A DNA stretch of 64,000 nucleotides from Escherichia coli (GTDB lineage: Bacteria; Pseudomonadota; Gammaproteobacteria; Enterobacterales; Enterobacteriaceae). Both the position numbers and the translations under genes were made by a program. Location of the stretch: the NCBI RefSeq assembly GCF_024502345.1, contig NZ_JALDNN010000003.1. One strand, written 5' to 3'. The notes under the pieces were generated by a model that was not told the DNA's origin, did not search any database, and saw only the letters and a program-made list of their open reading frames with translations. Every line of letters begins with the position of its first letter. Within the stretch, counting starts at the first letter, position 1. This document shows positions 22,355 to 37,005 of the stretch, one piece after another.

Positions 22355-23230
22355 ATGTCTAAAAGTAAAGCACGCAGTAAAGCTCTTCTCATCGCCTTCG
22401 CTGATCTGATCCCAGATATGGATAAGGTGGTTAACAAGAAGTTATTGGATTCTCTGAATGTTTATTCAGGGCATGATAATGACCTTATTGTTATTATGAA
22501 TGAAGATGGTCCAACCATAATTGAACTGAATTCTTTGAAATCAGTTTCAATGCTGGCTCAAAAGCTTTCTGCTTTTTCTACTTATTATCATGTGGAAATG
22601 CAGCAAATTCTTGTCAATCCAATTGACTTTGAGAAAGCTTACACACTTCTCAAAGAAGCACCTGCAATTCCAATGTTTAAAACTTTAGCCGATCTGGATA
22701 AGTTCTTAAATGAAGAGTTTGAAAAGTACGGGTTGAACACATTTCTTGATGTGGATAACCTTGATTATTCACTCGCTAAATCCAGAGAGTTAAAAAATGA
22801 TCAGTTGGTTGCCTGGGTTTCTGAAATTATTGAGAAGCGCGAGAAATTAGCATTGCGTAATCGATTTAATGAAGTGACCAAAGCACATTATGAAACTGTA
22901 GATGCAATGTATGCAGCCGTTCGCCCATTAATGAAAGAGTTAGGTTTTCCTGATGAACTCATGTTACACACCTTTAGTGAATTGAGCGTTTTCGATTCCA
23001 AAGGCTGGGATTATGCTATCAAGTCGAAAATTGAGTTTCTCACTAAACGCGAGGAGCAATGTTTAGATTATCAAATGAAAGCAGATAAACGGCAAGCGAC
23101 AGTTGATGAACTCTTGGCACAAATCAATAACGCTAAAACGGTAAAAGCACCAAGATCTTTTGGTCAGCTGTTTGGCTTTTCTGTTATTGCCATGATGACA
23201 TTTATGTTCATTGTAAACAAATTTATCTAA
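22355..23230 (+). CDS. Hypothetical protein with C-terminal transmembrane anchor
   Basis: 291-aa ORF, first gene of the long unidirectional block; hydrophobic C-terminus FGFSVIAMMTFMFIV. Confidence 0.4.
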   Translation: MSKSKARSKALLIAFADLIPDMDKVVNKKLLDSLNVYSGHDNDLIVIMNEDGPTIIELNSLKSVSMLAQKLSAFSTYYHVEMQQILVNPIDFEKAYTLLKEAPAIPMFKTLADLDKFLNEEFEKYGLNTFLDVDNLDYSLAKSRELKNDQLVAWVSEIIEKREKLALRNRFNEVTKAHYETVDAMYAAVRPLMKELGFPDELMLHTFSELSVFDSKGWDYAIKSKIEFLTKREEQCLDYQMKADKRQATVDELLAQINNAKTVKAPRSFGQLFGFSVIAMMTFMFIVNKFI

Positions 23231-23288
23231 TCCTGTTAAGGGGAAACCCTGACGGGGCTTCTCTTTGCTTAAATTGAGGAGAGAAGTA

Positions 23289-23666
23289 ATGTCATATCTT
23301 GAATATGTTAATGAAGTAAAAGTGTCCGGGATAGTTATCAGTGCAATGGAGAAAGAAATGACTAGCGGAAACGTTGGGTTATTGATAAAGCTCAAAAACA
23401 GAATGAAAACTGAAATTAATGGTGAAATTACTGAGAGAGAATTTTCGATTCAAATCAAAGTATCACCAGAGATGTATTCAGGCTGTTTCACTGGTATAAA
23501 TCAAGGTGATGAGTTAATGGTCTCCGGTTATCTTGTTGTGGATACCATCACATTGGAAGGGAGAGAGCATCCTCTTGACTACATGAGAGTAGTTGCAACA
23601 AGTAAGTTAGCTCACATACCTAAACCTCCTAAGGGTTTTGGGCAAAGTAGCTTTAGACAGATCTGA
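23289..23666 (+). CDS. Putative OB-fold single-stranded DNA-binding-like protein
   Basis: Pattern VKVSGIVIS...G..V.....L...G...V.GYLVV resembles the SSB/PriB OB-fold layout; weak, by-eye only; start chosen at the ATG following the RBS GAGGAGAG. Confidence 0.3.
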   Translation: MSYLEYVNEVKVSGIVISAMEKEMTSGNVGLLIKLKNRMKTEINGEITEREFSIQIKVSPEMYSGCFTGINQGDELMVSGYLVVDTITLEGREHPLDYMRVVATSKLAHIPKPPKGFGQSSFRQI

Positions 23667-23726
23667 CATTTAAACCACCCAAAAGGGGAGAAATCCCTTC
23701 ATGGGAGTTCTCCCTTAGGAGATCCC

Positions 23727-24713
23727 ATGAAACAAAAAATAAGGCCGACTGCATTTTGCAGTAAGCAAATGGATTTTTTCTCTATATTCGATTTTGAAGA
23801 AGAGGAAAAAGAAATAATAACTATAGTTGAGTCTCCACTTGACTATATAAATGATGCAATAGCCGCACAACAAAGTATTCAATCAGAAGATAAACATTCA
23901 GGCCCGGAACTGGAGCCTAGTGTGTCGGAAGATGTTGCTTTGCCTGGTAATTGTCCCAAACTACTCAAAAATCAAATTCTGCATGACATTAGTTTTGCTG
24001 CGGAAACTGATTATCTCTTCACTCTAGAAGAGTACAGTGCGGAGTTAGGTGGTCTGGTTTTTGACTGGGCCCCTGAAGATGTATATCAGTTATACGTCGT
24101 CGCAATGGAAGAGTCGTTGGAAAACGTAAGGCATCTCGTCATTACAAAATCACTCTATTCCACTGATGAATTCGGTAACATAACCGTGAATCCGCTTCTT
24201 GAAGCCGAAACACGGTGGTATATGTCGAAATCATTTGAGCTTACATGTGCCACTCATGGTATTGATGCTATTGAGTTCAGGTCAGAGCTTAAAAAAAGCT
24301 TATATGAATATACGCACAGTTACGGAGGTGAAAATGCTGAATTAGCTCGTTATCATCAAGATAAAGAGGTTATTCTGCATGATTGTAAGGAAGAGATGGG
24401 ATGGGATATCTTTTTCGAACAGGACTATTTGTTGCAAGAAAACAAACTGGCAATGAAATGGACTGATCGGGATATAATGGATGTCTATTCTAAAGTATTT
24501 AAATCAACAATTAATTTGTTTGAAAAACTTGTCGTTAATAACAAGTTAACCTCAAGAGATACTTTTGGTTGGGTAATCGTAAACCCTACATTTGAACGCC
24601 AGTTTGAATGGATTGAGTCAGAAGTATTCGAAATCGTAGGAACTCATCTTGGTTACAACGTTGCCGCTATCAGAACACAGATGGCGACGGCGTGTAGGAT
24701 GACTTTCCACTAA
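23727..24713 (+). CDS. Hypothetical protein
   Basis: 328-aa ORF preceded by a GC-rich leader hairpin; no motif recognised. Confidence 0.35.
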   Translation: MKQKIRPTAFCSKQMDFFSIFDFEEEEKEIITIVESPLDYINDAIAAQQSIQSEDKHSGPELEPSVSEDVALPGNCPKLLKNQILHDISFAAETDYLFTLEEYSAELGGLVFDWAPEDVYQLYVVAMEESLENVRHLVITKSLYSTDEFGNITVNPLLEAETRWYMSKSFELTCATHGIDAIEFRSELKKSLYEYTHSYGGENAELARYHQDKEVILHDCKEEMGWDIFFEQDYLLQENKLAMKWTDRDIMDVYSKVFKSTINLFEKLVVNNKLTSRDTFGWVIVNPTFERQFEWIESEVFEIVGTHLGYNVAAIRTQMATACRMTFH

Positions 24714-24772
24714 CATGCCACTGGCAAACATCTGCCAGCGGGCGGTGTTTGCATTTTACCGGAGTTTTAAAA

Positions 24773-25825
24773 ATGACTAACGCCGCAACTGTATTAAAAT
24801 CCGACAATTCCGTACAGGAAGAAATCATTGGTAATCTGTTACCCGCAAATGTTATATCAAGTAAGATGTTTGCGAATAAAGAACAGTATTATCTTGTCAA
24901 AGCAAAAGATTTATTTGGCATTCCTGAGATGGATGAGGATATGATTGTTCCAGTGTTTAAAAAGTTTTCTCCATATCGTGCGAATCTGAATAAGGACTAT
25001 ATACCAAATTCTCGAATACTTGAGCAAGTAGTAAAATTGCTTGTAAGTAACGATATAGATTTGAGTGTATGCCTGAAAGGAGAATCTGGATCAGGTAAGA
25101 CTGAAATGGCAATGTATATTAGCCATATGCTGAACTGGCCGCTAACCATAAAGCAAATCAACAGCAATATTCGCGCTGATGAGCTGGAAGGTGAGCGTAG
25201 TCTTATTAACGGTAACACCAGTTTTGTGCCTAGCGAGCTTGTAACGGCATTTCAGGAAGGCCACCTCATTCTTCTGGATGAAGTGGACAAGATTGACCCT
25301 GATACTGCCGCAAAGCTTCATATGCCTATAGAGCGAAAGCCCTGGTCACTAGCTGCCAACGGTGGCGAAGTGGTTAAGGCAAATAAGTTTACGCGATTTA
25401 TGGGTACTTCAAACACAAACATGAGTGGGGGATCTCGTAAGTTCGTTTCATCGCAGCGGCAGGATGCAGCGTTTATCAAGCGCTTCCTGATTGTGGAGAT
25501 GGAAAGGCCTTCAGAGGTTGCATTAACCAACGTTTTGCTTAAACGCTACAATAACCTGCCTATGCTGGTAATTGAAAAATTCGTTTCGGTAGCCGTTGCA
25601 GTAAACAACACAGGAACTGACGACAGTGTAATGGATATACGCCAGCTTGTGGCATGGGTTGGAACGTCAATGACGTTAAAGACCATGTCCTTACTGGATA
25701 CATTTAAAATTGCTTTTGCGTCGGCTCTGCCTGCACATGCCACTGGTATGGTGTTGGAAGCCATCGACTTAATTCTCGGTGACGACAAGAACCGTACAAT
25801 GGAGTATTACACTGCAAAAAAGTAG
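24773..25825 (+). CDS. AAA+ ATPase, CobS/MoxR-like (AAA_5-type)
   Basis: Walker A GESGSGKT and Walker B ILLDEVDK; size about 350 aa; start set at the ATG after a SD-like CCGGAG. Confidence 0.6.
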   Translation: MTNAATVLKSDNSVQEEIIGNLLPANVISSKMFANKEQYYLVKAKDLFGIPEMDEDMIVPVFKKFSPYRANLNKDYIPNSRILEQVVKLLVSNDIDLSVCLKGESGSGKTEMAMYISHMLNWPLTIKQINSNIRADELEGERSLINGNTSFVPSELVTAFQEGHLILLDEVDKIDPDTAAKLHMPIERKPWSLAANGGEVVKANKFTRFMGTSNTNMSGGSRKFVSSQRQDAAFIKRFLIVEMERPSEVALTNVLLKRYNNLPMLVIEKFVSVAVAVNNTGTDDSVMDIRQLVAWVGTSMTLKTMSLLDTFKIAFASALPAHATGMVLEAIDLILGDDKNRTMEYYTAKK

Positions 25826-25863
25826 TTATAGATGGGACGAGTTATCAGAAGGCTGAATGCCGT

Positions 25864-26133
25864 GTGACAGACTTTGCTCATCTTACGTTTTACGGTTTTC
25901 TGAGTGCAAACGGAACTGAAACTTTCGTGATTGCACAAGATGGAAATCAATATATAGGTCTGAAGCAGCATAATAATGACTATTCATTTATTTGTTATGA
26001 AGTCTGTAACAAAGATATGGAAGCCATGATTAAGGGCCTTGAATCAAAAGGATTCATGTATCAAGGGAGCATTCAATCGGCGGATGTCGAAAATGAATTT
26101 CCTGGAATTCTTTTAACAACACTTGAAAAGTAA
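25864..26133 (+). CDS. Small hypothetical protein
   Basis: 89-aa ORF between the AAA+ gene and the next gene. Confidence 0.3.
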   Translation: MTDFAHLTFYGFLSANGTETFVIAQDGNQYIGLKQHNNDYSFICYEVCNKDMEAMIKGLESKGFMYQGSIQSADVENEFPGILLTTLEK

Positions 26134-26203
26134 TATTATTAACCCTATCGGGAAATCTTTCCCGACGGGGAGGTTTTCCCATTTCTAAATCTGGAGAAAA
26201 CCT

Positions 26204-27331
26204 ATGACTTTCAATACTTCTAAACTTAATAAAGTTTCTGCAAAGGAAATCAGTGAAAACTTTATAAAAGCATATCCTGACTTGCAGAAAGGTGCTGTTA
26301 TAACAAAAATTGAAATTAGTGGGTGTCAGGGCTCTCGGCGAACTGATAAAATCGAACTGTCCTATGGCGGTGATGATATAACAGACCAGAAGAGCGTGTC
26401 TAAAAGCGAAGTTCGCTGGATAGACATAAAGGCACTGAGTTTCAAAAGCACTATCACTAGTCGAATTTCAACCCTTTGTTCACGGTTGTGCATCCGCTAT
26501 AGCAATATGTGGATACTGCCAGTTGAAAGGATGGAGGAGTTTCTCGAAGAGGCACAAGAAATCGAACGTGAATTTCAAGCCGGTATCCAGAACGTGGTTG
26601 ATAACTATGACACTCATATTCAGGCTGAGAAAGATCGCAGTCCGTTGATGTCAGATTTAATTGACCAGTTGAAATTGACTAAAGATGATTTTGTTAAATC
26701 ATTCCGGTTTAATCTGGCACATTTCATTCCGTTTTCACCGATTAGTGTGGAGGGGGATGAAACGCAGGACTTTTATCAAGAACAACTGATAACTGACTTG
26801 GCCGATGAAGCTATGAAGGTTTATACAAAAATCAGCAAAAATGATAATTTGCGTTCCAGCACGATTGACCGATTAAAGCAGATGCAGGATAAAATAATTA
26901 GCTTCATGTTCATTCATAAAGAGGCTGTTGTTCTTGCAGAAGCTATTAAGCATATCATGAATAATTTACCAAAAGGTGCCATTTCTTCTCCCCGTGATGT
27001 TGCGGTATTAAAGCAGTGGTTCTATTTCATGAGCGATGCGTCAATGCTGAAACGTATTATCTCCGGTGAACAAAAGGTAACCGACTGGCTGGATTCCATA
27101 ACCCGGTCATTCAATATCGATTCACAGGTTACAGCGGCTAACTCTCTGAATACTGCTGAGGATGATGTTTTTTCTTCAGCAAATGTTTTCAGAGAAGACC
27201 CGGTTGAAGATCTTGAGAACAAGGCAGTGAATGCACCTGAGCCTGCTGTTGGCCCTGATGAAGATGTTTCTATTCAGGCCAGTGGTAGTAATAGAGCATT
27301 TGACTGCGAACTCGAATTGACCGGTTGGTAA
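26204..27331 (+). CDS. Hypothetical protein associated with the AAA+/vWA pair (possibly the DUF3150-type partner seen with CobS/CobT-like pairs)
   Basis: 375-aa ORF located between the AAA+ ATPase and the vWA protein; family assignment is from recollection of gene-neighbourhoods, not a search. Confidence 0.35.
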   Translation: MTFNTSKLNKVSAKEISENFIKAYPDLQKGAVITKIEISGCQGSRRTDKIELSYGGDDITDQKSVSKSEVRWIDIKALSFKSTITSRISTLCSRLCIRYSNMWILPVERMEEFLEEAQEIEREFQAGIQNVVDNYDTHIQAEKDRSPLMSDLIDQLKLTKDDFVKSFRFNLAHFIPFSPISVEGDETQDFYQEQLITDLADEAMKVYTKISKNDNLRSSTIDRLKQMQDKIISFMFIHKEAVVLAEAIKHIMNNLPKGAISSPRDVAVLKQWFYFMSDASMLKRIISGEQKVTDWLDSITRSFNIDSQVTAANSLNTAEDDVFSSANVFREDPVEDLENKAVNAPEPAVGPDEDVSIQASGSNRAFDCELELTGW

Positions 27332-27408
27332 TTTAGTCTTGTAAAAATATCCCCAGATGGGTACTTCACCATCTGGGTGAGTACCCTTTATCAAATAAAG
27401 GTACTCAA

Positions 27409-29421
27409 ATGAAATTTGATTTAAAATCTTCACCACGCCATATTCAACGCCTGACGAATATAGCCAGCGTGATAAGCGGTATAAATGGGATTTATGTAAT
27501 TATTGACAATAAGGTGAGTACACCTTATTTCAACACCCAAAACAATGTCTGTGTTTTACCTAACGGTGATTATAGCGATGAGAGATTTGTCAAGCTAATT
27601 GAAGGATTCATATGTCATGAAGCAGGACACGGTCGTTATACAGAGCATGAAGTATACCGTGAAGCTTTTGTTGGAGAATTGATCAATGCAGATGGCTTCA
27701 TCAGTATTGATGATGACTTGAAGGCTGATTTTCAAAACCTAAAACAAAAGCAAAAAGCATATGCTCGTGCTTGTCGACTAAAAGGACTTATTAATCTTTT
27801 TGATGATGTCCAGATGGAAGAGAAGACGGGTATTGATTATCAGGAGGCAAAAAAACGCCTCGCGGTGACTTATGCCTTGATGGTTGAAGCTGGGCGAATG
27901 ACGGTTGATATTTCTTCAACCCCTCAAAACCCGGTTCAGTTTATTGAAATGTACCTGCTTAATACATTGCGGGTTAACGTTCTCCAACAAGAAGGGCATA
28001 AAGAAACGCTTGACCCATTTTTCGATTATGCAAAGAAAATCCTTGCACCTGTAACTTCAGAAGTCGATGAGATCATTCATCAAGCTCTAAGTTGCAAAAG
28101 TACGCAAAATTGCGATTCTCTGGCGCGTAAAACTCTGGCTCTTTTAGAGCGTTTAAGGGATGAAGCAAAAGAGAAACAGCAAGAAGAGGAGCAGTCGAAA
28201 GACCCGCATGACGATACAGATGAATCATCTGGCTCTGAGAATGAACCTGATACCGAACCCAATGGTGATAGCCAGGGTGAAGGGGATGGTGATAAAGAAG
28301 GTCAAGGCGATGATTCTGGTGATGGTAAGGCGCCTGCGGAAGGTAATGGGTTACCGGACCAATCCGGAGGGGATGAACAAAATGCTGAGAACTCTAACGG
28401 CGAACCTGATGGTGAGTCTGAAGGTGATGAATCGGCGACCCCCGGCTCGGATGATGCTGACTCGACACCTTCCCTAAACGACAGTTCAAATGGAAATTCT
28501 TCTGATGGGGAAAGTAACTTTTCTCCTGAACAGTGGGATATGCTTGCCAAATTGCTGGATGATTTTTTAAACAGTGATGAGGAAAGCGAGGATTTTCATG
28601 AGGTTCTTGCAAAAGAGATCTCCGTAATTGCTGCCAGTGTGTCGGATGAGGTTAAAGCTGAATTTGGTGCAAGTGAGTGGGATGTTCCAGATTTGAACAT
28701 TGATCTGAATGTCTACAATGAAGCATTAAATATCAGCCAGACCCTTGGGGCAGATTTATCTGTTTTACAGCAGGTAAAAATGCGTGGTCAATTTAAAACC
28801 CGTGATAGAGGCTTGTCATTCGATATTAATCGACTGATCCAGTCTCCGATGGGTGTTAGGGATGTATTTCGGTCACAAAGCGAATCTAAAAACCGGGGCC
28901 ACGTCGGCTTGGTCATTGTTCGTGATATTTCAGGTTCAATGAGTCTGGAACACCGTTATATCCATGCAATTAAGACTGACCTTGCATTAACTCTGGCAAT
29001 TGAAGCTATTTCAAAAATGCATGTTGCTAATGTGATTTATCCGTTTGTAGACAAAGATTTTGAAGTTATCAAAACGTTTGATGAAAACGCGGAAGAGAAA
29101 CTTTCAAAATTCTCACTTGGCTGCAAGGGCAATAATACCCCAACGGGTTCTGCATTAAATGCTGCTTTAGAGTTGTTACTTGAAAGCCAGTTTGACAGGA
29201 AAATTGTTTTCCTTATTACTGATGGTTATCCGACTGAGTCGGCTTACACCATTAATGATGTTTTTTCAGTTGCTGAAAGTAACGGCATTGAAATCGCTGG
29301 TGTTGGTATTAAAACTGATGTGTTGATGGGTTTTAATGAGGGCACCTTCGTAAATGTTGATGATATTTCTTTATTGCCGAATGAGGTCAGTAAATTAGTA
29401 CATCAAATTCTATCTAATTAA
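27409..29421 (+). CDS. vWA-domain protein with long acidic linker (CobT-like partner of the AAA+ ATPase)
   Basis: C-terminal MIDAS-like motif VIVRDISGSMS followed by FLITDGYPTE; a central D/E/G/S-rich low-complexity region of roughly 120 aa. Confidence 0.55.
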   Translation: MKFDLKSSPRHIQRLTNIASVISGINGIYVIIDNKVSTPYFNTQNNVCVLPNGDYSDERFVKLIEGFICHEAGHGRYTEHEVYREAFVGELINADGFISIDDDLKADFQNLKQKQKAYARACRLKGLINLFDDVQMEEKTGIDYQEAKKRLAVTYALMVEAGRMTVDISSTPQNPVQFIEMYLLNTLRVNVLQQEGHKETLDPFFDYAKKILAPVTSEVDEIIHQALSCKSTQNCDSLARKTLALLERLRDEAKEKQQEEEQSKDPHDDTDESSGSENEPDTEPNGDSQGEGDGDKEGQGDDSGDGKAPAEGNGLPDQSGGDEQNAENSNGEPDGESEGDESATPGSDDADSTPSLNDSSNGNSSDGESNFSPEQWDMLAKLLDDFLNSDEESEDFHEVLAKEISVIAASVSDEVKAEFGASEWDVPDLNIDLNVYNEALNISQTLGADLSVLQQVKMRGQFKTRDRGLSFDINRLIQSPMGVRDVFRSQSESKNRGHVGLVIVRDISGSMSLEHRYIHAIKTDLALTLAIEAISKMHVANVIYPFVDKDFEVIKTFDENAEEKLSKFSLGCKGNNTPTGSALNAALELLLESQFDRKIVFLITDGYPTESAYTINDVFSVAESNGIEIAGVGIKTDVLMGFNEGTFVNVDDISLLPNEVSKLVHQILSN

Positions 29422-29492
29422 ACTCTACCCAATCGGGGCAAAACGACGCCCGGTTGGGTCGCTTTGCTCCCTGAAGGATTAAGGAGCAATAT

Positions 29493-29714
29493 ATGACTCA
29501 GATAAAGACTTACCGTGTCGAGTATGAAAAAGTCGGGACGATGCATCGTGTCCGTATTTTTGGTCGCATGGGTGAAATTGTCAAAAGTGAATTGCCAGAA
29601 GAAAGAATTCTCCGGGATGTATCTATACCAGAGGGTAATGGAGAAATGGCAACGTCAATGGTTGATGGTTTTATCCAGCGTCTTGAAAATATCGGCTTCA
29701 AGACTGAAGCGTAA
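29493..29714 (+). CDS. Small hypothetical protein
   Basis: 73-aa ORF with a leader hairpin and an SD-sequestering hairpin upstream. Confidence 0.3.
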   Translation: MTQIKTYRVEYEKVGTMHRVRIFGRMGEIVKSELPEERILRDVSIPEGNGEMATSMVDGFIQRLENIGFKTEA

Positions 29715-29807
29715 TTGTTGAGGGCTCTTGTGGGCCCTCATTCTTAGATTCTGCGTTGTGGGTTTCTCCCTGTTTTCTGCATCGCAGAGGGCATTGAGAA
29801 ACCCACA

Positions 29808-31061
29808 ATGCCAGATAAGAGAGAACAAATGACTTATGCATCCCAGGCTGTTAAGCGTACACCACATGAAGTCACTGACCACTTTATAAAAATGGTTCAC
29901 GCTCGTATAGCGGAAGTATCAGGCTGGCGCTATGTATTCGATAGAATACCGGCATTTAAAGACGCTTGTGATAAAGCACCTGGCCAGGTTCCTTGCCCAT
30001 TTAGTGGGGTCGGGAAATCAAAGTTCCGGTTCCGTAAAAAGGACCTCTTTACCGGTTGTGCCATTCACAATGATTTTCCAGTGAATGCATTTTGTGACGG
30101 TATTGATGTATTGGCAGAGTACTACAAGCTGAGCAAGACCCAGACTTGTAAGAAGATCCTGACTGATTTCTTTGGGATGGATTTGTACGCTCCATTAACT
30201 GATGCGGATCTCGAAAGTGAACGTCGTTATAAATCAACAGTTCGTGCAACCGAAACGCTTGACAGCGATGAAGTTGAAAAACGAGGGCGTAAACTTGAAG
30301 TGATATATCACTATACCGGTGAAATCAAACCTGAGAGCCCTGTGTGGGTGTATCTCCGAAATCGAGGTCTTAATCGAGTTCTGAGCAACCTTCCCAAGGA
30401 TTTAGGTCTGAACAAACGACTTTACTACATGGATAAGTCACTGGAAAAACCCACGATTTACCCGGGAATGATCGCAATTTATCGCGATACCCGTGGGCGT
30501 CCTCTGACAATCCACAGAACGTTCGTCGAGTTAAATGGTGATAAGGCACATGTTGAGAATCCGAAACTGATGATGAAACCGCCTGCCGATATGACTGGCG
30601 GCTCAATTCAGCTGTACGATCCACACTTCAATCCAGGTACCCGTACCTGGACGTTAGGTGTGGCTGAAGGCATAGAAAACGCGCTGTCAGTTACTGAAGC
30701 GACTTCAACACCGTGCTGGGCCGCGAGCTCTGCCTGGTGCCTTGAAAACGTTGAAGTGCCGGATAGTCTCCTGCCTCCCCCTGGTGTGAAAGTAATACAG
30801 TTTTACATCTGGGCGGATAAGGATCTTGTGAATACAAAAGGCACTTCCCCGGGAATGGAGTCAGCTAAACGACTTCAGGAACGTATGAAAGAGTTTTTTG
30901 CAAAGCGATATCCCACTTCAGAGCTGACAATTAAAGTCTTTGAACCTGATTTCGATATTCCTGTAGGGAAGAAAGGAGTCGACTGGAACGATGTACTAAA
31001 ATTAACAGGACCGGATGGATTCCCCGTAAAATGGGCTCCTGAATGTCTTGCTCAGCTTTAA
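29808..31061 (+). CDS. Toprim-domain DNA primase-like protein with N-terminal zinc-binding region
   Basis: Cys/His cluster PCPFSGVGKSKF...TGCAIHNDFPVNAFCDG, a Toprim-like acidic motif TLGVAEGIENALSV and a downstream WADKD segment. Confidence 0.55.
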   Translation: MPDKREQMTYASQAVKRTPHEVTDHFIKMVHARIAEVSGWRYVFDRIPAFKDACDKAPGQVPCPFSGVGKSKFRFRKKDLFTGCAIHNDFPVNAFCDGIDVLAEYYKLSKTQTCKKILTDFFGMDLYAPLTDADLESERRYKSTVRATETLDSDEVEKRGRKLEVIYHYTGEIKPESPVWVYLRNRGLNRVLSNLPKDLGLNKRLYYMDKSLEKPTIYPGMIAIYRDTRGRPLTIHRTFVELNGDKAHVENPKLMMKPPADMTGGSIQLYDPHFNPGTRTWTLGVAEGIENALSVTEATSTPCWAASSAWCLENVEVPDSLLPPPGVKVIQFYIWADKDLVNTKGTSPGMESAKRLQERMKEFFAKRYPTSELTIKVFEPDFDIPVGKKGVDWNDVLKLTGPDGFPVKWAPECLAQL

Positions 31062-31860: not shown

Positions 31861-31937
31861 AGATAACACATATTTTTACTACATCCCTGATGGCACCTCC
31901 CATCGGGGTGGCCCTCAGAGTTGAATCTGGAGGTCTT

Positions 31938-32816
31938 ATGAAATTAGCTACAGATCTGGTCAATGCGGTTCTGATAAAGAATGGCATTGTACCAACTTCC
32001 ATTAATGAGTTGCCTGTAACGTCGCTGGTAAAGCCATTGACACAAGTGCATCTCAGCCTGTATCTGAAAACAACGCATTTATCTCAGTTCGTCCCTGACT
32101 ACGTTGAGTCTCTGAAAGATTGTCCGGTTTCGTATGATATCGGCCTTGAACTTCAGCAGTGTATCAACAGTGCTGAATTGCTCTGTGAAGACATGGAGTC
32201 ACTTGAGTTTATCTCTGTATGGATAGAGCTCTATACGTGTAATTCAAAGCAACAGCGGTTTGAGAAAAGTAACTTTTCTTTTCGAACTGAAGATATCGAG
32301 CTGGCTAAGATGCTGTCTTGCTCGCATGAAATCTTAATAAGTCAGGCGGCTTGTTTCTGGCTTTTGTATTTTGAAGATTTCATGAAATATGTTCGTAATA
32401 GGCTCTGTGCATTACTCAGACAGGTTTTAATTTTGATTGCAGGACTGCGAAATGTATACCTGCAACGGAATGAAGATCAGTTGATTAAGAGAGTTAAGCA
32501 CGGGAATGAAATGCTGGAGGTGACTCTTAAAGCTGTTGCACTATGTTCAATGGAAAGGTATCTGAAATCATATGCCTCTTTACGAACAGAAGCGGCGGCT
32601 TCTGGGTTTATCAAATGCATTCAGTCTTATATCAGTACTGGTTGGAGACATGGCTATATAGTCTGTCAATATTCAAAAAATGGACGGTCTCTTGGTAAGT
32701 CATTACCACTTTTTATAAAAGAGACATCTGAGCATAATATACAGAAACGTGTCAATCGCCTTATATCTTCCACGATTTCGGGGCGAAATAAAGATTTAGG
32801 TCTTTACGATTTCTGA
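31938..32816 (+). CDS. Member 1 of a tandem five-gene paralog family, unknown function
   Basis: Shares the N-terminal pattern (L/I)(V/I)xA(V/F/M)L and the size class with the four following genes; start set at the ATG after the SD CTGGAGG. Confidence 0.45.
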   Translation: MKLATDLVNAVLIKNGIVPTSINELPVTSLVKPLTQVHLSLYLKTTHLSQFVPDYVESLKDCPVSYDIGLELQQCINSAELLCEDMESLEFISVWIELYTCNSKQQRFEKSNFSFRTEDIELAKMLSCSHEILISQAACFWLLYFEDFMKYVRNRLCALLRQVLILIAGLRNVYLQRNEDQLIKRVKHGNEMLEVTLKAVALCSMERYLKSYASLRTEAAASGFIKCIQSYISTGWRHGYIVCQYSKNGRSLGKSLPLFIKETSEHNIQKRVNRLISSTISGRNKDLGLYDF

Positions 32817-32832
32817 TTAACATTACCCATCC

Positions 32833-32869
32833 GGGGATTACATCCCTGATGGGTGTAATCCCATTTTTT
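32833..32869 (+). terminator. Intercistronic hairpin with U-run between paralogs 1 and 2 (attenuator-like; an alternative pairing is possible)
   Basis: GGGGATTACA (32833-32842) pairs with TGTAATCCC (32854-32862) and is followed by T6; alternatively CCCATC (32826-32831) pairs with GATGGG (32848-32853). Confidence 0.45.
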
Positions 32870-32886
32870 ATTTAAGTGAGGATTAC

Positions 32887-33822
32887 ATGAAAATTATTGA
32901 GAAAATCATTAATGCATTTCTGATATCGCGTAAACATTCAGTGAAGGTCAGTAATGTTATCTGCTTGAGTGGCACCGACGGTAAATTTACTGGAATATGC
33001 TGTGACGCCGATGTTTCATTTGATTTTCTTTATTCGTATGCCCCCGCATACAGTTCAACATTTTTAGATATCCCGTTTCCTGGGTTTGAAGACCAGGACA
33101 TCGCGGATTGTGTTAAATGTCAGTTAGATGTAGTTAAAAATAAACGGAATCGGTCTTTTTTAATTGACCATATTAGATTTCCAGTTTCCTCAAGGGAAGG
33201 ATTCACTCTGACACGCGGTGATAGTTACGACGTGACTGAATGTGAATATAATAAGGAACGATTGCTACATCTGACCCGACAAGGACGTTTTTGTGAAGAC
33301 TATCTCACGTTCAAGGATGGCCTGAGTTCCTTCTTTTCATTTGTGAATTTCGAATTACATGAAATAGTGAAGGAAGGTATACGTTTGGCACTTGATGTTT
33401 TAAACAAGATTACATCTGATCAACCAGACCGTCTTATAAAAGACTTTAAGTATCATGATTGCTTCGGCAGTTATAATGTACAAATATTTTCTAAGGGTCT
33501 GCCAGTTGATATCCTTGAAACGATGATTGCACCTGATAGGTTGTTGTCTAACTTGTCAGGTAGTCGTCAGATTATGAAAAATGCAAGTCGCTATCTTAAA
33601 GGCTTTGCCCTCAGTAATCGTGTTTACATGAAATACGGATGGCGTTTAGCAGATGTTGACACATCTGACTATGCGAAAGTTATGTCAGATAGAGAAATGC
33701 ATGCCAGAGATGATCTTAAGGCGTTTTGCAGTGTCTTTTTTAAAGAGTGTTTCGCATCCGGAAAATATGAATACGAAGCATACCTGAGTGAAAGACAACA
33801 CGCGATTCGTAACGGGTATTAA
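32887..33822 (+). CDS. Member 2 of the tandem paralog family
   Basis: N-terminus MKIIEKIINAFL parallels MKAIYKIIEAML of member 3; the C-terminal segment NASRYLKGFALSNRVYMKYGW parallels NHVNRYLSGRVMKRRIYAVIEA. Confidence 0.45.
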   Translation: MKIIEKIINAFLISRKHSVKVSNVICLSGTDGKFTGICCDADVSFDFLYSYAPAYSSTFLDIPFPGFEDQDIADCVKCQLDVVKNKRNRSFLIDHIRFPVSSREGFTLTRGDSYDVTECEYNKERLLHLTRQGRFCEDYLTFKDGLSSFFSFVNFELHEIVKEGIRLALDVLNKITSDQPDRLIKDFKYHDCFGSYNVQIFSKGLPVDILETMIAPDRLLSNLSGSRQIMKNASRYLKGFALSNRVYMKYGWRLADVDTSDYAKVMSDREMHARDDLKAFCSVFFKECFASGKYEYEAYLSERQHAIRNGY

Positions 33823-33899
33823 TACTTATTATCAACTTATCTAATCCCTGAGGGAATTCTTCCCTTGGAGAGGATTCCCTCTTAACCGAGGGCTACAAA

Positions 33900-34820
33900 A
33901 TGAAAGCGATTTATAAAATAATTGAAGCGATGCTGGTGAAAATGGGCTTTGAAGGTGCCGTGATCCAAAGTGTCAATCTGGAAACGGGTGTGATTCAGAG
34001 TCTAGTTGTTAAGGCTGATATTCCTGTCCGGACTTTAATGCCGCATTTAAGGCGATATCTGCGCGATTGTGAGCCTTTATGGGGACATGACGTGGATTAC
34101 CACCCTATAGCACAATATTGCTCAGGAGCTGCGTTGTTGAAGGCTGGGCCGGTCACTCTTGAAACCTTTCGGTTTGAGGTTTCAGTGTCAACTGCTCACC
34201 TGCGGCTTGTGGATATTGAGCCGGACTGTCTAAATGAGGGTGTGAACCGTGAAAAACTGGAGTATGTATATTACCGCTCCAGCAATGCAGACAAGGATCT
34301 AATACTTGGTATGGTTGAAAAAGGACATAATTTTATCAATCATCTGCATGAACTTTTACGCTCGCGCTTATCAACGGCTTTGCCGCTGATTTTCGCAGTT
34401 ACAGAAAAGATTGCGGAGAGTTCAGTTCCACAAGTAGTCACCAGCTTTTTCAGTGTTGACCATCAAATCAATGCCCAGATAGTAGTCGAACCTGTACCCG
34501 TTTCAGTCGCAGACCAGATAATTTCTGCTGACTGGAATGTGTGTAGTGTTTCAGGAGCGGATAAGTTCCTGAACCATGTTAATCGTTATCTGTCGGGTAG
34601 GGTGATGAAGCGGCGTATTTACGCTGTTATAGAAGCTTGCGACGGTGGATCTTTATCCCTCAATGCGAACTTAGGTTGCTTTACATCACCTCTTCTCGTA
34701 ACTGAGTATAAAATGGTTCAGTCACACTCTTCATCGCTTTATCGAAAGGCTATAAATAACTCGCTTAAGCAAGTTAATTCGTATGCTCCAGAGCATTCAG
34801 ATGACCTGCTTTCTATGTAA
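33900..34820 (+). CDS. Member 3 of the tandem paralog family
   Basis: See member 2; similar length of 306 aa. Confidence 0.45.
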   Translation: MKAIYKIIEAMLVKMGFEGAVIQSVNLETGVIQSLVVKADIPVRTLMPHLRRYLRDCEPLWGHDVDYHPIAQYCSGAALLKAGPVTLETFRFEVSVSTAHLRLVDIEPDCLNEGVNREKLEYVYYRSSNADKDLILGMVEKGHNFINHLHELLRSRLSTALPLIFAVTEKIAESSVPQVVTSFFSVDHQINAQIVVEPVPVSVADQIISADWNVCSVSGADKFLNHVNRYLSGRVMKRRIYAVIEACDGGSLSLNANLGCFTSPLLVTEYKMVQSHSSSLYRKAINNSLKQVNSYAPEHSDDLLSM

Positions 34821-34892
34821 TTAATTTTACCCATTGGGGAAGCGTATTCCCCGTGGGGGTTGCTTCCTTTCTTCATTAAAGAGGAAGTGAAT

Positions 34893-35828
34893 ATGTTTAA
34901 TGAAAGTGATGATAAAAACTTTGTTAGTGCAATGCTTAAATGTCAACTTGGCCTGAATATAAGCCAAGAGGATATTACAATATATGACAAAGAAAATCAT
35001 TTTGAACAACTTTCTTTTAAAGCAAATGTGGCGCTTGATGATTTGTTATTTTATCTGGATTTATATATATCAGAATTGATTAAGCATAATGCGCCGTATT
35101 CTGAAACTGAAGTCCTTCGGACTAAAATCAAATACTTTCTTAAAGTATATGAAAAGTCTGGTTTTCAGAACATAAGAATTCGCGGTTATCATAACGCGCA
35201 CAGCACTATAGATATTGTCGATATCGCATCATTAATATTGGCGGGGTCTGTACCGGAGTCTGAACATGATTCAATAGATCCTGTTTTAAGAAAGGAAATC
35301 TATCAAAATCGCATGAGTGTTGAGGGTAAAGTTCTCATTGCCCGTTTTGCACTTAAGCAATTTTTCCATTCTGATTTTGGTGATTTCATCTTAGAGTTCG
35401 AGAAAAGTATCTCCAAGTGTTTGAATACTTCTCTCCAGATAATTAAATCTGTAAAGAACTCATTTAACCGTTTAGGTCAATATCAATATCAGCGTCGTGT
35501 AAAAGATGACCTGACTTTGCATCTTGATTTGAATACAGATGAATACCCGGCCTGTATGCCAGACCTTTACATCGGTTTCAAGGAGTCTGAAGGGACGACG
35601 GGAGTGTATCGCGATGATGAAAAAATCATTCGTCTTTATACTGGCGTTAGTTCCGGAAAGGATGTTCCTGTAATGATGACCGTTCGATTCACTGGCTGTG
35701 ACGGGAGTGTTTTGTCTGAATCATCGCACGGTACTTTCTGTTCCGTGGGACCTACCGGCCGAGTGCAGGTTTGTGACAGAGTTGCGTTGGTCCAAGAAGC
35801 GGTCGAAGAGTTACGGGATGTTGTTTAA
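34893..35828 (+). CDS. Member 4 of the tandem paralog family
   Basis: Clear paralogy with member 5: VEGKVLIARFALKQFFHSDFGDFI versus VDGQVLIARFALEKFWDTHFIGLI, and YQRRVKDDLTLHLDL versus YTRRITDELSLHISL. Confidence 0.5.
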   Translation: MFNESDDKNFVSAMLKCQLGLNISQEDITIYDKENHFEQLSFKANVALDDLLFYLDLYISELIKHNAPYSETEVLRTKIKYFLKVYEKSGFQNIRIRGYHNAHSTIDIVDIASLILAGSVPESEHDSIDPVLRKEIYQNRMSVEGKVLIARFALKQFFHSDFGDFILEFEKSISKCLNTSLQIIKSVKNSFNRLGQYQYQRRVKDDLTLHLDLNTDEYPACMPDLYIGFKESEGTTGVYRDDEKIIRLYTGVSSGKDVPVMMTVRFTGCDGSVLSESSHGTFCSVGPTGRVQVCDRVALVQEAVEELRDVV

Positions 35829-36004
35829 CCCTTGTTTTTTACCTCTTCATTCCAAAAAGTAACTTTGTTCTACCAAATGACCGCGCTACCTATTCTGATC
35901 AACTTGCAGGAAAGAATGGCGCAGTAGTACATATTTTTAATCCACCCACTGGGGAAGTCGCTCCCCTGTGGGGCACTTCCTTTAATAATCCTGAGGAAGT
36001 GAAG

Positions 36005-36961: not shown

Positions 36962-37005
36962 GTCCTGAAGGTTGAATTATATATTTTCAGGTTTTTATAC
37001 TTCTA

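What the first reader, a model, noticed from the sequence alone, without database searches (positions are those of the whole stretch)
24773..29421. AAA+ ATPase / vWA-domain gene pair with an intervening unknown gene and a long acidic linker
A CobS/MoxR-like AAA+ ATPase (Walker A GESGSGKT) is followed by a small ORF, a 375-aa unknown protein, and a 670-aa protein with a C-terminal vWA MIDAS motif (DISGSMS) and a central region of about 120 aa made almost entirely of D/E/G/S/N. MoxR-vWA pairs have been described as cores of NTP-dependent conflict systems, and CobS/CobT-like pairs recur on plasmids and phages with unknown function. Here the pair sits inside the hairpin-regulated block, and the acidic segment could act as a DNA mimic.
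Basis: partly seen in the sequence, partly recalled or inferred. Interest (0 to 1): 0.65.

Follow-up and report, generated by a model that had tools for sequence, protein, structure and literature searches.

The report
Plasmid motor–adaptor–client machine for establishment
This IncHI1 resistance-plasmid block encodes a conserved three-protein ATP-driven machine whose motor, in related plasmids, helps newly transferred DNA escape the recipient's restriction enzymes, and two of its three parts have never been studied.

Summary
Window 24773-29421 (an IncHI1 plasmid, 99.9% identical to R27 and pHCM1) encodes an AAA_5 ATPase, an 89-aa ORF, a DUF3150 protein and a 670-aa protein with a C-terminal VWA/MIDAS domain and a 132-aa acidic linker.

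It is not a cobaltochelatase. The 670-aa protein has CobT architecture: an M48-like N-domain with an invariant HExxH…E motif, a disordered tether, then VWA. AAA→DUF3150→VWA is a conserved triad: in 72 diverse loci, VWA directly follows DUF3150 in 60/63 and AAA lies upstream in 49/49. It usually sits in ssb/SSAP/exonuclease operons (37/48 have RecT or Erf), and one relative fuses the exonuclease to the motor.

In IncC plasmids the motor is vcrx089. Published deletions of vcrx089-090 raise type I restriction of incoming plasmid up to ~900-fold. DUF3150 and VWA (vcrx094/095) were never tested.

DUF3150, YqaJ and Vcrx090 proteins share an acidic tail ending in aromatic residues; motor and adaptor do not.

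Best reading: a CobST-like motor–adaptor complex acting on tagged clients during plasmid establishment (defence evasion or break repair). IncHI1 lacks vcrx090, SSAP and exonuclease, so its exact role is inferred. The DNA-mimic idea is poorly supported.

The parts
24773..25825 (+). Motor: CobS/MoxR-class AAA+ ATPase (350 aa). Walker A is at nt 25079-25102 and Walker B at nt 25268-25288. It is the homologue of IncC Vcrx089 and R391 Orf70.
   Evidence: Pfam AAA_5 6e-32. The nearest solved relatives are Midasin AAA domains, CobS, NorQ and CbbQ. It is 27.8% identical to the IncC AAA protein located where Roy et al. place vcrx089. It is the only such gene in the window.
25864..26133 (+). Small lineage-specific gene (89 aa, GTG start) between motor and DUF3150, found only in IncHI1/IncHI2.
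   Evidence: No family hits. The ORF is kept intact in IncHI2 at 47% identity, while its neighbours are 76-79% identical. It is absent in other lineages.
26204..27331 (+). DUF3150 protein (375 aa). Folded domain aa 1-312 (nt 26204-27139); disordered acidic tail aa 313-375 (nt 27140-27328) ending in ...ELELTGW. Proposed client or third subunit.
27409..28143 (+). Adaptor N-domain: CobT_N-like, M48/M56-type zincin fold with an intact HExxH (HEAGH, nt 27616-27630) and a downstream N-x-x-D-D-x-x-M-E (nt 27793-27822).
28144..28539 (+). Adaptor linker: 132-aa disordered acidic low-complexity tether (net charge -36).
   Evidence: Composition. The linker is hypervariable in length and charge among homologues. 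Solved CobT has an equivalent disordered linker of about 90 aa.
28540..29421 (+). Adaptor C-domain: VWA with a complete MIDAS. DISGSMS is at nt 28924-28944, T at nt 29134-29148 and D at nt 29215-29226.
   Evidence: Pfam VWA, VWA_CoxE and VWA_2. A profile of the family hits NorD at 1.6e-8 and CobT_C at 5e-5 among PDB chains. MIDAS residues are invariant. DxSxS is present in 58/58 census proteins.
26134..26203 (+). Intergenic pair of RNA hairpins; the second stem covers the Shine-Dalgarno sequence of the DUF3150 gene. Similar pairs lie at 24714-24772, 27332-27408 and 29422-29492.
   Evidence: MFE -28.8 kcal/mol, z = -5.8. The other gaps give z = -2.0, -6.9 and -3.7. The same layout is seen in Klebsiella plasmid L002. 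Roy et al. describe an RBS-sequestering structure upstream of vcrx089 in IncC.
22355..24713 (+). Three co-oriented upstream genes (hypA 22355-23230, hypB 23289-23666, hypC 23727-24713), syntenic with the triad in IncHI-type plasmids only. They occupy the place held by ssb, SSAP and exonuclease genes in other lineages.
   Evidence: They are conserved at 22-33% identity in Klebsiella IncHI1B/FIB plasmid L002. They have no family hits, no relation to vcrx090 or SSB by hhalign, and no homologues in the 76 census loci.
29493..31061 (+). Downstream syntenic genes: a 73-aa ORF (29493-29714) and a toprim/primase-like gene (29808-31061).
   Evidence: PHROG 510 DNA primase 4e-19. toprim is conserved downstream of the triad in Klebsiella (44% identity), in the Proteus ICE (30%) and in 9/33 census loci.

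Best explanation
The block is the IncHI1 version of a conserved three-protein machine of conjugative plasmids and ICEs. The parts are: (i) a CobS/MoxR-class AAA+ motor; (ii) a CobT-like adaptor made of an M48-like zinc-peptidase domain with an intact HExxH…E site, a disordered acidic tether and a VWA/MIDAS domain; and (iii) DUF3150, a protein of uncharacterised fold with an acidic tail ending in an aromatic residue.

By analogy with solved CobS-CobT-CobN, NorQ-NorD and CbbQ-CbbO, I propose the following. The motor forms a ring and the adaptor docks on it. The adaptor holds a client or target through its MIDAS site and/or its peptidase groove. ATP hydrolysis then remodels that protein, and the HExxH site may cleave it.

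In related elements the same triad is embedded in ssb / single-strand-annealing / exonuclease operons. There the motor gene (vcrx089), together with vcrx090, protects newly entered plasmid DNA from type I restriction in the recipient. I therefore propose that the IncHI1 triad acts in the recipient, just after transfer, on proteins bound to the incoming DNA. Candidate targets are a restriction complex, a host nuclease or end-processing factors. The outcome would be better plasmid establishment.

Shown: the domain identities, motif conservation, triad synteny, linkage to recombination genes, and the published phenotype of the IncC homologue. Inferred: complex formation, client docking through the C-terminal tip, peptidase activity, the target, and that IncHI1 has the same phenotype.
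For: The CobT three-part architecture and the motor-adaptor-effector model come from the CobSTN preprint.

The triad is conserved across IncHI1, IncHI2, Klebsiella IncHI1B/FIB, IncC, an SXT/R391-like ICE and a Pseudomonas plasmid, with congruent divergence of all three proteins. In the census of 72 unique loci, VWA directly follows DUF3150 in 60/63 and AAA lies upstream on the same strand in 49/49. HExxH is present in 57/58 and DxSxS in 58/58.

Linkage to recombination: RecT or Erf is present in 37/48 loci, and YqaJ or a conserved ~390-aa protein in 43/48. One relative has a YqaJ-AAA_5 fusion protein.

An aromatic C-terminal tip is found on DUF3150 (66/69), YqaJ (21/26) and Vcrx090-like proteins (13/15), but on AAA in 0/67 and VWA in 1/60.

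Experiments on the IncC homologue: Δ(vcrx089-090) reduces transfer 25-fold into type I R-M+ V. cholerae. The defect is rescued by expression in the recipient and is absent with a ΔhsdR recipient. One mRNA extends at least into vcrx094, the DUF3150 gene. In pKAZ3 the same deletion increases restriction by EcoBI 424-fold and by EcoKI 906-fold. In SXT the homologous operon is activated by the transfer activator SetCD.
Against: The published phenotype is for a double deletion, vcrx089 plus vcrx090. Vcrx090 has no detectable IncHI1 homologue, so the active anti-restriction component could be Vcrx090.

The IncHI1 motor is only 27.8% identical to Vcrx089. IncHI1 has no detectable SSB, SSAP or exonuclease in the 64-kb window.

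DUF3150 and VWA (vcrx094/095) have never been tested and were not flagged in the IncC TnSeq. That screen compared Cas+ with Cas- recipients that were both R-M+, so it could not have detected a restriction phenotype.

SXT deletions of s067, s068 and s070 reduced transfer ≤10-fold. The restriction status of the recipients was not checked here, and I did not map which of these genes are the triad members.

No physical interaction, peptidase activity or target has been demonstrated. Whether genuine CobT retains HExxH could not be determined.
Confidence: 0.55

Rival explanations
1. The triad is primarily an accessory of single-strand-annealing recombination or double-strand-break repair. For example, it might load, activate or recycle the exonuclease and SSAP on DNA ends, or neutralise host RecBCD in the absence of a Gam protein. 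On this view the anti-restriction effect seen in IncC is a by-product of better repair.
For: An SSAP from two unrelated families (RecT 20, Erf-like 17) lies in the same operon in 37/48 loci, so the linkage survives non-orthologous replacement. One relative has a YqaJ exonuclease-AAA_5 fusion. The exonuclease carries the same C-terminal tip as DUF3150. Δexo (vcrx093) sensitises pKAZ3 to EcoBI as strongly as Δ(089-090), 426-fold against 424-fold. Roy et al. note that IncC and SXT lack gam.
Against: IncHI1, the Klebsiella IncHI1B/FIB plasmid and some other loci keep the triad without any recognisable SSAP or exonuclease. In pVCR94, Δ(ssb-exo) did not affect transfer into the restricting host when no CRISPR target was present, whereas Δ(089-090) did. 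The two functions are therefore at least partly separable.
Confidence: 0.25
2. It is a plasmid-borne defence system of the MoxR-vWA NTP-dependent conflict type, directed against phages or competing mobile elements.
For: A MoxR-class ATPase, a vWA protein and a conserved third gene resemble the 'ternary' logic described by Kaur et al., and the block is carried on mobile elements.
Against: There is no VMAP, iSTAND, FtsH or beta-propeller component. The vWA protein has one fixed architecture with no variable effector domains. The phyletic pattern differs. PADLOC gives only marginal P-loop-level hits. The genes are a fixed backbone operon next to transfer and primase genes, not a variable island. 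The only experiments on a homologue show protection of the element from host defence.
Confidence: 0.08
3. The acidic linker of the VWA protein is the functional element. It would act as a DNA mimic that titrates type I restriction enzymes, like ArdA or Ocr.
For: The segment is 132 aa with net charge -36. The homologous operon in IncC has anti-type-I-restriction activity.
Against: Linker length, sequence and charge are not conserved: net -7 in IncC, which is the plasmid with the demonstrated phenotype, only 74 aa in the Proteus ICE, and (DGSD)n repeats in Klebsiella. The segment is low-complexity with almost no hydrophobic residues, so it is probably disordered. From general knowledge, ArdA and Ocr are folded proteins with fixed charge arrays. 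The same kind of linker joins the same two domains in genuine CobT, where it is disordered. The IncC phenotype maps to vcrx089-090, not to the VWA gene.
Confidence: 0.05
4. It is a genuine cobaltochelatase (CobS/CobT) or another metal-insertion chaperone that serves plasmid or host metabolism.
For: It has the same overall motor-adaptor architecture as CobST, and weak hits to CobS and CobT models. Some database entries label DUF3150 'cobalamin biosynthesis protein'.
Against: Scores are far below the curated cutoffs (35.6 against 558.55, 27.8 against 779.45). There are no CobN or cob genes nearby. The context is conjugation, primase and recombination genes. The 'cobalamin' labels appear to be guilt by association.
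Confidence: 0.02

Closest known systems
Vcrx089-Vcrx090 anti-restriction pair of the hde (host defence evasion) operon of IncC plasmids pVCR94 and pKAZ3, with homologues in SXT/R391 ICEs (Roy et al. 2020; Dimitriu et al. 2024; listed as 'vcrx089_090' in AntiDefenseFinder)
   Same: The motor is homologous: AAA_5, 27.8% identity, and the best hit in IncC plasmids. The same operon in IncC also encodes DUF3150 and the CobT-like VWA protein just after ssb-bet-exo. Both occur on MOBH-type conjugative elements next to traN/trhN-side transfer genes.
   Different: IncHI1 has no Vcrx090, ssb, bet or exo homologue. Its three triad genes are contiguous apart from a lineage-specific 89-aa gene. No phenotype has been measured for IncHI1. 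The literature defines the system as two genes and never mentions DUF3150 or VWA.
Aerobic cobaltochelatase CobS-CobT-CobN (solved 2026: motor-adaptor-effector)
   Same: An AAA_5 motor, plus an adaptor with an M48-like N-domain, a disordered linker and a C-terminal VWA/MIDAS domain, plus a third protein held by the adaptor.
   Different: Sequence scores are far below family cutoffs. There is no CobN, and the third protein is DUF3150 with an unrelated fold. HExxH…E is invariant here, whereas the CobSTN text I read mentions neither a zinc site nor HExxH. The genomic context is conjugation and recombination, not cobalamin synthesis.
CbbQ-CbbO (Rubisco activase) and NorQ-NorD (nitric oxide reductase maturation): MoxR-class motor with a VWA adaptor
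   Same: The same motor class and a MIDAS-bearing adaptor that couples ATP hydrolysis to remodelling of a specific target protein.
   Different: The adaptor N-domains and the targets are different. Those systems are metabolic and chromosomal. Here the context is a mobile element and the target is unknown.
MoxR-vWA ternary conflict systems (VMAP, iSTAND, FtsH, beta-propeller; Kaur et al. 2020)
   Same: A MoxR-clade ATPase, a vWA protein and a conserved third component, with a proposed peptide-capture-and-release mechanism. Some of those systems are linked to a zincin peptidase that processes precursors with a conserved C-terminal peptide (FxSxx-COOH). That parallels the HExxH domain and aromatic-COOH tips seen here.
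   Different: The third component is DUF3150. The vWA protein has a single fixed architecture and no variable effector domains. The system is found on plasmids and ICEs of unicellular Proteobacteria. The evidence points to anti-defence.
Midasin/Rea1
   Same: It gives the best sequence match of the motor among solved chains (8.6e-21). From general knowledge, it also joins AAA_5 modules to a MIDAS domain through a D/E-rich segment.
   Different: It is a eukaryotic 4,700-4,900-residue single polypeptide acting in ribosome assembly. The resemblance is architectural only.

Membership tests
hde / Vcrx089-090 anti-restriction system (IncC, SXT/R391) | AAA_5 (+CbbQ_C) ATPase homologous to Vcrx089 | tested here: met
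   AAA_5 6e-32. It is 27.8% identical over 77% of its length to the IncC AAA protein at the vcrx089 position. The CbbQ_C domain itself was not detected in the IncHI1 protein.
hde / Vcrx089-090 anti-restriction system (IncC, SXT/R391) | Vcrx090 partner gene directly downstream of the ATPase | tested here: not met
   There is no BLAST, HMM or hhalign relative in the window or in any IncHI plasmid. The position is occupied by an unrelated 89-aa gene.
hde / Vcrx089-090 anti-restriction system (IncC, SXT/R391) | Same operon as ssb-bet-exo | tested here: not met
   No SSB, RecT, YqaJ or Erf hit in the 64-kb window.
hde / Vcrx089-090 anti-restriction system (IncC, SXT/R391) | Protects incoming DNA from type I restriction when expressed in the recipient | not testable with these tools
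   Shown only for pVCR94 and pKAZ3. It needs conjugation assays with R27/pHCM1 mutants.
AAA-DUF3150-CobT-like VWA triad (defined in this study) | Three co-oriented genes in the order AAA_5, DUF3150, VWA protein | tested here: met
   Window genes at 24773, 26204 and 27409. The pattern holds in 60/63 and 49/49 census loci.
AAA-DUF3150-CobT-like VWA triad (defined in this study) | Adaptor with HExxH…E N-domain, low-complexity linker and complete MIDAS | tested here: met
   HEAGH at aa 70-74, D133/E137, and DISGSMS…T…D. M48-like fold.
AAA-DUF3150-CobT-like VWA triad (defined in this study) | DUF3150 with an acidic disordered tail ending in an aromatic residue | tested here: met
   Tail aa 313-375 is disordered, has 15 D/E against 3 K/R and ends ...LTGW. 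The family frequency is 88-96%.
Aerobic cobaltochelatase CobS/CobT/CobN | Proteins reach the curated CobS/CobT family score cutoffs | tested here: not met
   35.6 bits against 558.55 (TIGR01650) and 27.8 against 779.45 (TIGR02442).
Aerobic cobaltochelatase CobS/CobT/CobN | CobN subunit and a cobalamin-biosynthesis gene context | tested here: not met
   The neighbours are trh transfer genes, a helicase, a primase-like toprim gene and Tus. Relatives sit with ssb, recT and yqaJ.
Aerobic cobaltochelatase CobS/CobT/CobN | CobT architecture: M48C-like N-domain, disordered linker, VWA | tested here: met
   This shows common ancestry and a common mode of working, not membership.
MoxR-vWA ternary conflict systems (Kaur et al. 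2020) | Third component is VMAP, iSTAND, FtsH-type ATPase or a beta-propeller fused to vWA | tested here: not met
   The third gene is DUF3150. Its fold matches only DUF3150 proteins.
MoxR-vWA ternary conflict systems (Kaur et al. 2020) | vWA component carries variable C-terminal effector domains that are displaced between relatives | tested here: not met
   The architecture is fixed, with the VWA domain at the C-terminus, in all 58 full-length relatives.
DNA-mimic anti-restriction proteins (ArdA/Ocr type) | Conserved, structured array of acidic residues mimicking the DNA backbone | tested here: not met
   The linker is low-complexity and not conserved in length, sequence or charge. There is no hit to known anti-restriction families. 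Folding of the linker itself was not modelled.
M48/M56 zinc metallopeptidases | Zincin fold with HExxH and a downstream Glu ligand | tested here: met
M48/M56 zinc metallopeptidases | Demonstrated zinc binding and peptidase activity | not testable with these tools
   It needs biochemistry. No Pfam peptidase family reaches significance by sequence.

The most novel reading that the evidence does not exclude
The triad is a new kind of enzymatic anti-defence machine: a split, FtsH-like, ATP-dependent metalloprotease/remodeller. In this reading the MoxR-class ring powers a CobT-like adaptor. The adaptor uses its MIDAS site and intact M48-type HExxH site to capture proteins bearing, or bound by, aromatic-COOH acidic tails. 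It then dismantles or cleaves host restriction or nuclease complexes on freshly transferred DNA. DUF3150, the exonuclease and Vcrx090 would be interchangeable clients or targeting subunits. If so, the published 'two-gene' vcrx089_090 system is really built on this three-gene core, which is widespread in Proteobacterial mobile elements.
Probability: 0.2. Interest if true: 0.8.

Novelty: new variant of a known kind. Interest (0 to 1): 0.6.

Why it matters
IncHI1 plasmids carry multidrug resistance in typhoid Salmonella. IncC, SXT/R391 and IncHI2 elements are also major resistance vectors. How they survive restriction and DNA breaks on entering a new host helps set their host range.

The only functional data on this gene family (vcrx089-090) left the mechanism open. 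The authors described it as 'a novel anti-restriction mechanism' still being characterised.

This analysis supplies concrete, testable parts: two overlooked obligate partners (DUF3150 and a CobT-like VWA adaptor), an invariant metalloprotease motif, a complete MIDAS site, and a shared C-terminal tag on candidate clients. It also shows a tight evolutionary link to single-strand-annealing recombination modules.

The analysis also shows that databases and AntiDefenseFinder-style tools define the system too narrowly. IncHI plasmids carry a reduced variant that can be used to separate the core machine from its accessories.

Tried and rejected
- **Cobaltochelatase:** rejected on scores and context.
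- **Known defence systems:** PADLOC gave only marginal P-loop hits.
- **Phage counterparts of the triad:** tblastn of DUF3150 and of the VWA protein against 50,697 phage records found nothing. Only distant CobS-like ATPases appear, and one 'phage' record is really an IncA/C plasmid.
- **A vcrx090 equivalent in IncHI1:** BLAST, tblastn across PLSDB at E≤0.1, hhalign of hypA/hypC against the vcrx090 family, and HMM scans of the window were all negative. hypB against SSB by hhalign was not significant. hypA/B/C, orf89, orf73 and orf174 have no homologues in the 76 census loci.
- **Sequence link between the N-domain and solved CobT_N:** not detectable by phmmer or a family profile. I therefore could not read whether genuine CobT keeps HExxH.
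- **Pfam for Vcrx090 and for the ~390-aa protein of Desulfovibrio-type loci:** no hits.
- **TnSeq data for vcrx094/095:** supplement text is not held.
- **Failed attempts:** The search for related loci with very divergent alignments failed twice before a tighter alignment worked. pVCR94 itself (KF551948) is not in the plasmid collection, so the vcrx numbering of IncC genes is inferred from gene order and the domains described in the paper.
- **An unusable HMM:** the VWA_C HMM was built out of frame and was ignored. MIDAS conservation was checked by motif instead.

Full report
**1. What is there**

The 64-kb window is an IncHI1 plasmid. Region 24700-29500 is 100% identical to E. coli plasmid NZ_LT795503 and 99.9% identical to R27 (NC_002305) and pHCM1 (NC_003384).

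The reported interval holds four co-oriented genes:
- a 350-aa AAA_5 ATPase (24773-25825; Pfam 6e-32; Walker A GESGSGKT at aa 103-110 and Walker B ILLDEVD at aa 166-172);
- an 89-aa ORF (25864-26133);
- a 375-aa DUF3150 protein (26204-27331; PF11348 2e-22);
- a 670-aa protein with a C-terminal VWA domain (27409-29421), a complete MIDAS (DISGSMS…T…D) and a 132-aa acidic low-complexity segment (aa 246-377; 43 D/E against 7 K/R).

The 89-aa ORF is kept intact at the same position in IncHI2 plasmids at 47% identity, while its neighbours are 76-79% identical. It is therefore a real, fast-evolving, lineage-specific gene.

**2. It is not a chelatase, but it is built like one**

Curated CobS and CobT models score 35.6 and 27.8 bits against cutoffs of 558 and 779. 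There is no CobN. The neighbours are trhU/trhN/trhI transfer genes, a helicase, a toprim (primase-like) gene and Tus.

The motor's nearest solved relatives are Midasin AAA modules, CobS, NorQ and CbbQ. All are MoxR-clade AAA_5 motors that work with a MIDAS-bearing partner.

A 2026 structural preprint on CobS-CobT-CobN describes CobT as an M48C-peptidase-like N-domain, a disordered linker of about 90 residues and a C-terminal VWA domain. CobT acts there as the adaptor between motor and effector.

H70-E71-x-x-H74 and D133/E137 are invariant in 11 divergent sequences, and HExxH is present in 57 of 58 full-length relatives, the other having HExxxH. I could not determine whether genuine CobT keeps this motif.

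**3. The acidic linker**

The linker exists in every homologue but is hypervariable:
- net charge -36 in IncHI1;
- net charge -44, as (DGSD)n repeats, in a Klebsiella plasmid;
- net charge -7 in IncC;
- only 74 residues in a Proteus ICE.

It joins the same two domains as the disordered CobT linker. This fits a flexible tether. It does not fit a DNA mimic with a conserved charge array, especially since the one plasmid family with a measured anti-restriction phenotype has the least acidic linker.

**4. The 'unknown' gene is the obligate third member**

AAA, DUF3150 and the VWA protein co-occur with congruent divergence in IncHI1, IncHI2, Klebsiella IncHI1B/FIB, IncC, an SXT/R391-like Proteus ICE and a Pseudomonas plasmid.

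A census of 72 unique loci from Gamma-, Alpha- and Deltaproteobacteria, Chromatiaceae, Lentisphaerae and Cloacimonadota gives:
- the VWA/CobT-like gene directly after DUF3150 in 60/63 loci;
- the AAA gene upstream on the same strand in 49/49 loci, adjacent in 37;
- DxSxS in 58/58 adaptor proteins.

DUF3150 and the VWA protein have no tblastn match in 50,697 phage records, so the triad is a feature of conjugative elements.

**5. Link to published function**

In IncC plasmids the gene order is AAA, a 302-aa gene, ssb, bet, exo, DUF3150, VWA. By gene order and described domains, this corresponds to vcrx089-090-091-092-093-094-095 of pVCR94.

Roy et al. 2020 showed that Δ(vcrx089-090) lowers transfer 25-fold into V. 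cholerae carrying a type I R-M system. [quoted passage not shown] One transcript reaches at least vcrx094.

Dimitriu et al. 2024 found that the same deletion in pKAZ3 raises restriction by EcoBI 424-fold and by EcoKI 906-fold. AntiDefenseFinder lists 'vcrx089_090' as a two-gene anti-RM system.

No paper in the searchable library mentions DUF3150 or the VWA gene in this connection. The IncC TnSeq compared two R-M+ recipients, so it could not have revealed a restriction role for vcrx094/095. In SXT the homologous operon is driven by the transfer activator SetCD. Deletions of s067, s068 and s070 changed transfer ≤10-fold; I did not check the restriction status of those recipients or map these genes onto the triad.

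**6. Link to recombination**

The triad appears in three layouts:
- IncC-like: AAA-vcrx090-(ssb)-recT-yqaJ-DUF3150-VWA;
- SXT-like: (ssb)-recT-yqaJ-AAA-(vcrx090)-DUF3150-VWA;
- apparently bare triads.

Most of the 'bare' ones are in fact preceded by an Erf-like annealing protein (PHROG 2324, 9e-40) and a conserved ~390-aa protein of unknown family.

Overall, 37 of 48 loci with enough upstream sequence carry an SSAP (RecT 20, Erf-like 17). 43 of 48 carry YqaJ or the ~390-aa protein. The association thus survives replacement of one SSAP family by an unrelated one. One metagenomic relative encodes a single 746-aa protein that fuses the YqaJ exonuclease to the AAA_5/CbbQ_C motor.

**7. A shared C-terminal tag**

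DUF3150 proteins end in an acidic disordered tail with an aromatic tip. 131 of 149 representatives and 66 of 69 census members end in F, W or Y. The typical endings are …[DE]x[FY][FY]F or …S[LM]GLW, and the window protein ends …LTGW.

The frequency of an aromatic C-terminal residue across the operon proteins is:

| Protein | Ends in F/W/Y |
|---|---|
| YqaJ exonuclease | 21/26 |
| Vcrx090-like | 13/15 |
| SSB (canonical D-x-P-F) | 11/14 |
| RecT | 6/23 |
| AAA motor | 0/67 |
| VWA adaptor | 1/60 |
| toprim | 0/9 |

The simplest reading is that several 'client' proteins share one docking peptide for a common receptor. That receptor could be the motor-adaptor pair, through the MIDAS site, the peptidase groove or the ring. 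It could instead be the SSAP or host SSB-binding proteins. This cannot be resolved here.

Kaur et al. note that some MoxR-vWA systems are linked to a zincin peptidase that processes precursors with a conserved C-terminal peptide. That is a suggestive parallel.

**8. What is special about IncHI1**

The window has one copy each of the AAA, DUF3150, VWA and toprim genes. It has no detectable vcrx090, SSB, RecT, YqaJ or Erf. Vcrx090 is confined to IncA/C-type plasmids (825 records, none IncHI).

Instead, three co-oriented genes of unknown function precede the motor. They are conserved only in IncHI-type plasmids and are unrelated to vcrx090 or SSB by profile comparison. IncHI1 therefore carries a reduced, or differently accessorised, variant of the system.

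**9. Mechanism proposed**

- Shown: a MoxR-class motor, a CobT-like adaptor with intact MIDAS and zincin motifs, a conserved third protein with a tagged tail, operon linkage to ssDNA/dsDNA-end processing genes, and a recipient-side anti-type-I-restriction phenotype for the homologous motor (together with vcrx090).
- Inferred: the motor and adaptor assemble as in CobST. The adaptor captures a client or target. ATP hydrolysis remodels, and the HExxH site may cleave, a protein on newly entered plasmid DNA. This promotes establishment by defence evasion and/or break repair.

I give this general explanation 0.55. The specific claim that IncHI1's triad is anti-restriction is weaker, at about 0.35, because the published phenotype might reside in Vcrx090.

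The rivals are:
- a primarily recombination-accessory role (0.25);
- a defence system of the Kaur type (0.08);
- a linker DNA mimic (0.05);
- a chelatase (0.02).

**10. Regulation**

Seven of the eight intergenic gaps in 23.2-29.8 kb fold into hairpins far more stable than shuffled controls (z = -2.0 to -7.8). They usually come as a pair, with the second stem covering the next gene's Shine-Dalgarno sequence or start codon. The same layout is present in the Klebsiella relative despite sequence divergence. Roy et al. reported an RBS-sequestering structure before vcrx089. The 'hairpin block' is therefore real. Its role, whether translational coupling or mRNA processing and stability, is inferred.

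**11. Novelty and score**

The genes are annotated generically in RefSeq, and the motor's family is already catalogued as anti-RM. What is new here:
- the recognition that the conserved unit is a three-gene CobST-like machine including DUF3150 and an HExxH-bearing adaptor;
- its near-universal coupling to SSAP modules;
- the shared C-terminal tag;
- the fact that IncHI plasmids carry a variant lacking vcrx090, bet and exo.

I rate it a new variant of a known kind, with interest 0.6.

Noticed in passing
window 23231-29807 (intergenic gaps); L002 6392-12460: Almost every gap between genes of this co-oriented block holds one or two GC-rich hairpins (z = -2.0 to -7.8). The second often covers the Shine-Dalgarno sequence or start of the next gene. 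The layout is conserved in a Klebsiella IncHI1B/FIB plasmid. This suggests translational coupling or occlusion along a long operon.
   Followed up: partly
window 29753-29811; L002 12351-12460: A 28-nt-arm imperfect inverted repeat (MFE of the gap -49.5 kcal/mol, z = -7.8) ends on the ATG of the toprim/primase-like gene. It is nearly sequence-identical in the Klebsiella plasmid, although the flanking genes are only about 44% identical. It is much better conserved than its surroundings.
   Followed up: partly
L003, L004, L007, L013-L088 (relatives); window 27308-27328: An acidic tail ending in aromatic residues (…SFYF, …DHFF, …SMGLW) is shared by three unrelated protein families of these operons (DUF3150, YqaJ exonuclease, Vcrx090-like). 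It is absent from the AAA and VWA proteins. It resembles SSB and T7 gp2.5 C-terminal tails and looks like a common docking tag.
   Followed up: yes
L007 2072-4312 (and L008): A single 746-aa protein fuses a YqaJ-type exonuclease to the AAA_5/CbbQ_C motor, in an operon ordered SSB-RecT-fusion-280 aa-DUF3150-CobT/VWA. This is a Rosetta-stone link between motor and nuclease.
   Followed up: partly
L037 6700-8586 and 23 other census loci: Desulfovibrio/Mailhella-type triads are preceded by an Erf-like annealing protein and a conserved ~390-aa protein with no Pfam, NCBIfam or PHROG match. It may be an unrecognised nuclease partner of Erf.
   Followed up: partly
window 22355-24713: Three IncHI-specific genes sit upstream of the motor. 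hypA ends in a hydrophobic, membrane-anchor-like segment (…FGFSVIAMMTFMFIVNKFI). hypB is a small protein whose sequence pattern loosely resembles an OB-fold SSB, but hhalign does not support this. Their functions are unknown.
   Followed up: partly
window about 31900-37000 (L001 21239-26262): pHCM1 annotation shows five consecutive hypothetical genes of about 290-320 aa downstream of the block. They may be a paralogous tandem family. Paralogy was not checked.
   Followed up: no
L002 10084-12048: The Klebsiella adaptor's linker is an almost pure (D-G-S-D)n / (D-S-D-G-S-D) repeat of about 100 residues. This points to rapid expansion by repeat slippage.
   Followed up: no
public records NZ_OL790812.1 and AB571791.1: There are database mislabels. 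NZ_OL790812.1 in the plasmid collection is a 4.09-Mb Proteus mirabilis replicon, effectively a chromosome, carrying an SXT/R391-like element. AB571791.1 in the phage collection is a 127.7-kb record labelled Salmonella Typhimurium, not a phage; its AAA match is indistinguishable from the IncC plasmid hits (27.8% identity over the same residues).
   Followed up: no
AFDB50 hits: Many DUF3150 proteins are named 'cobalamin(e) biosynthesis protein' in UniProt. This appears to be annotation spread from the CobS/CobT-like labels of their neighbours.
   Followed up: no
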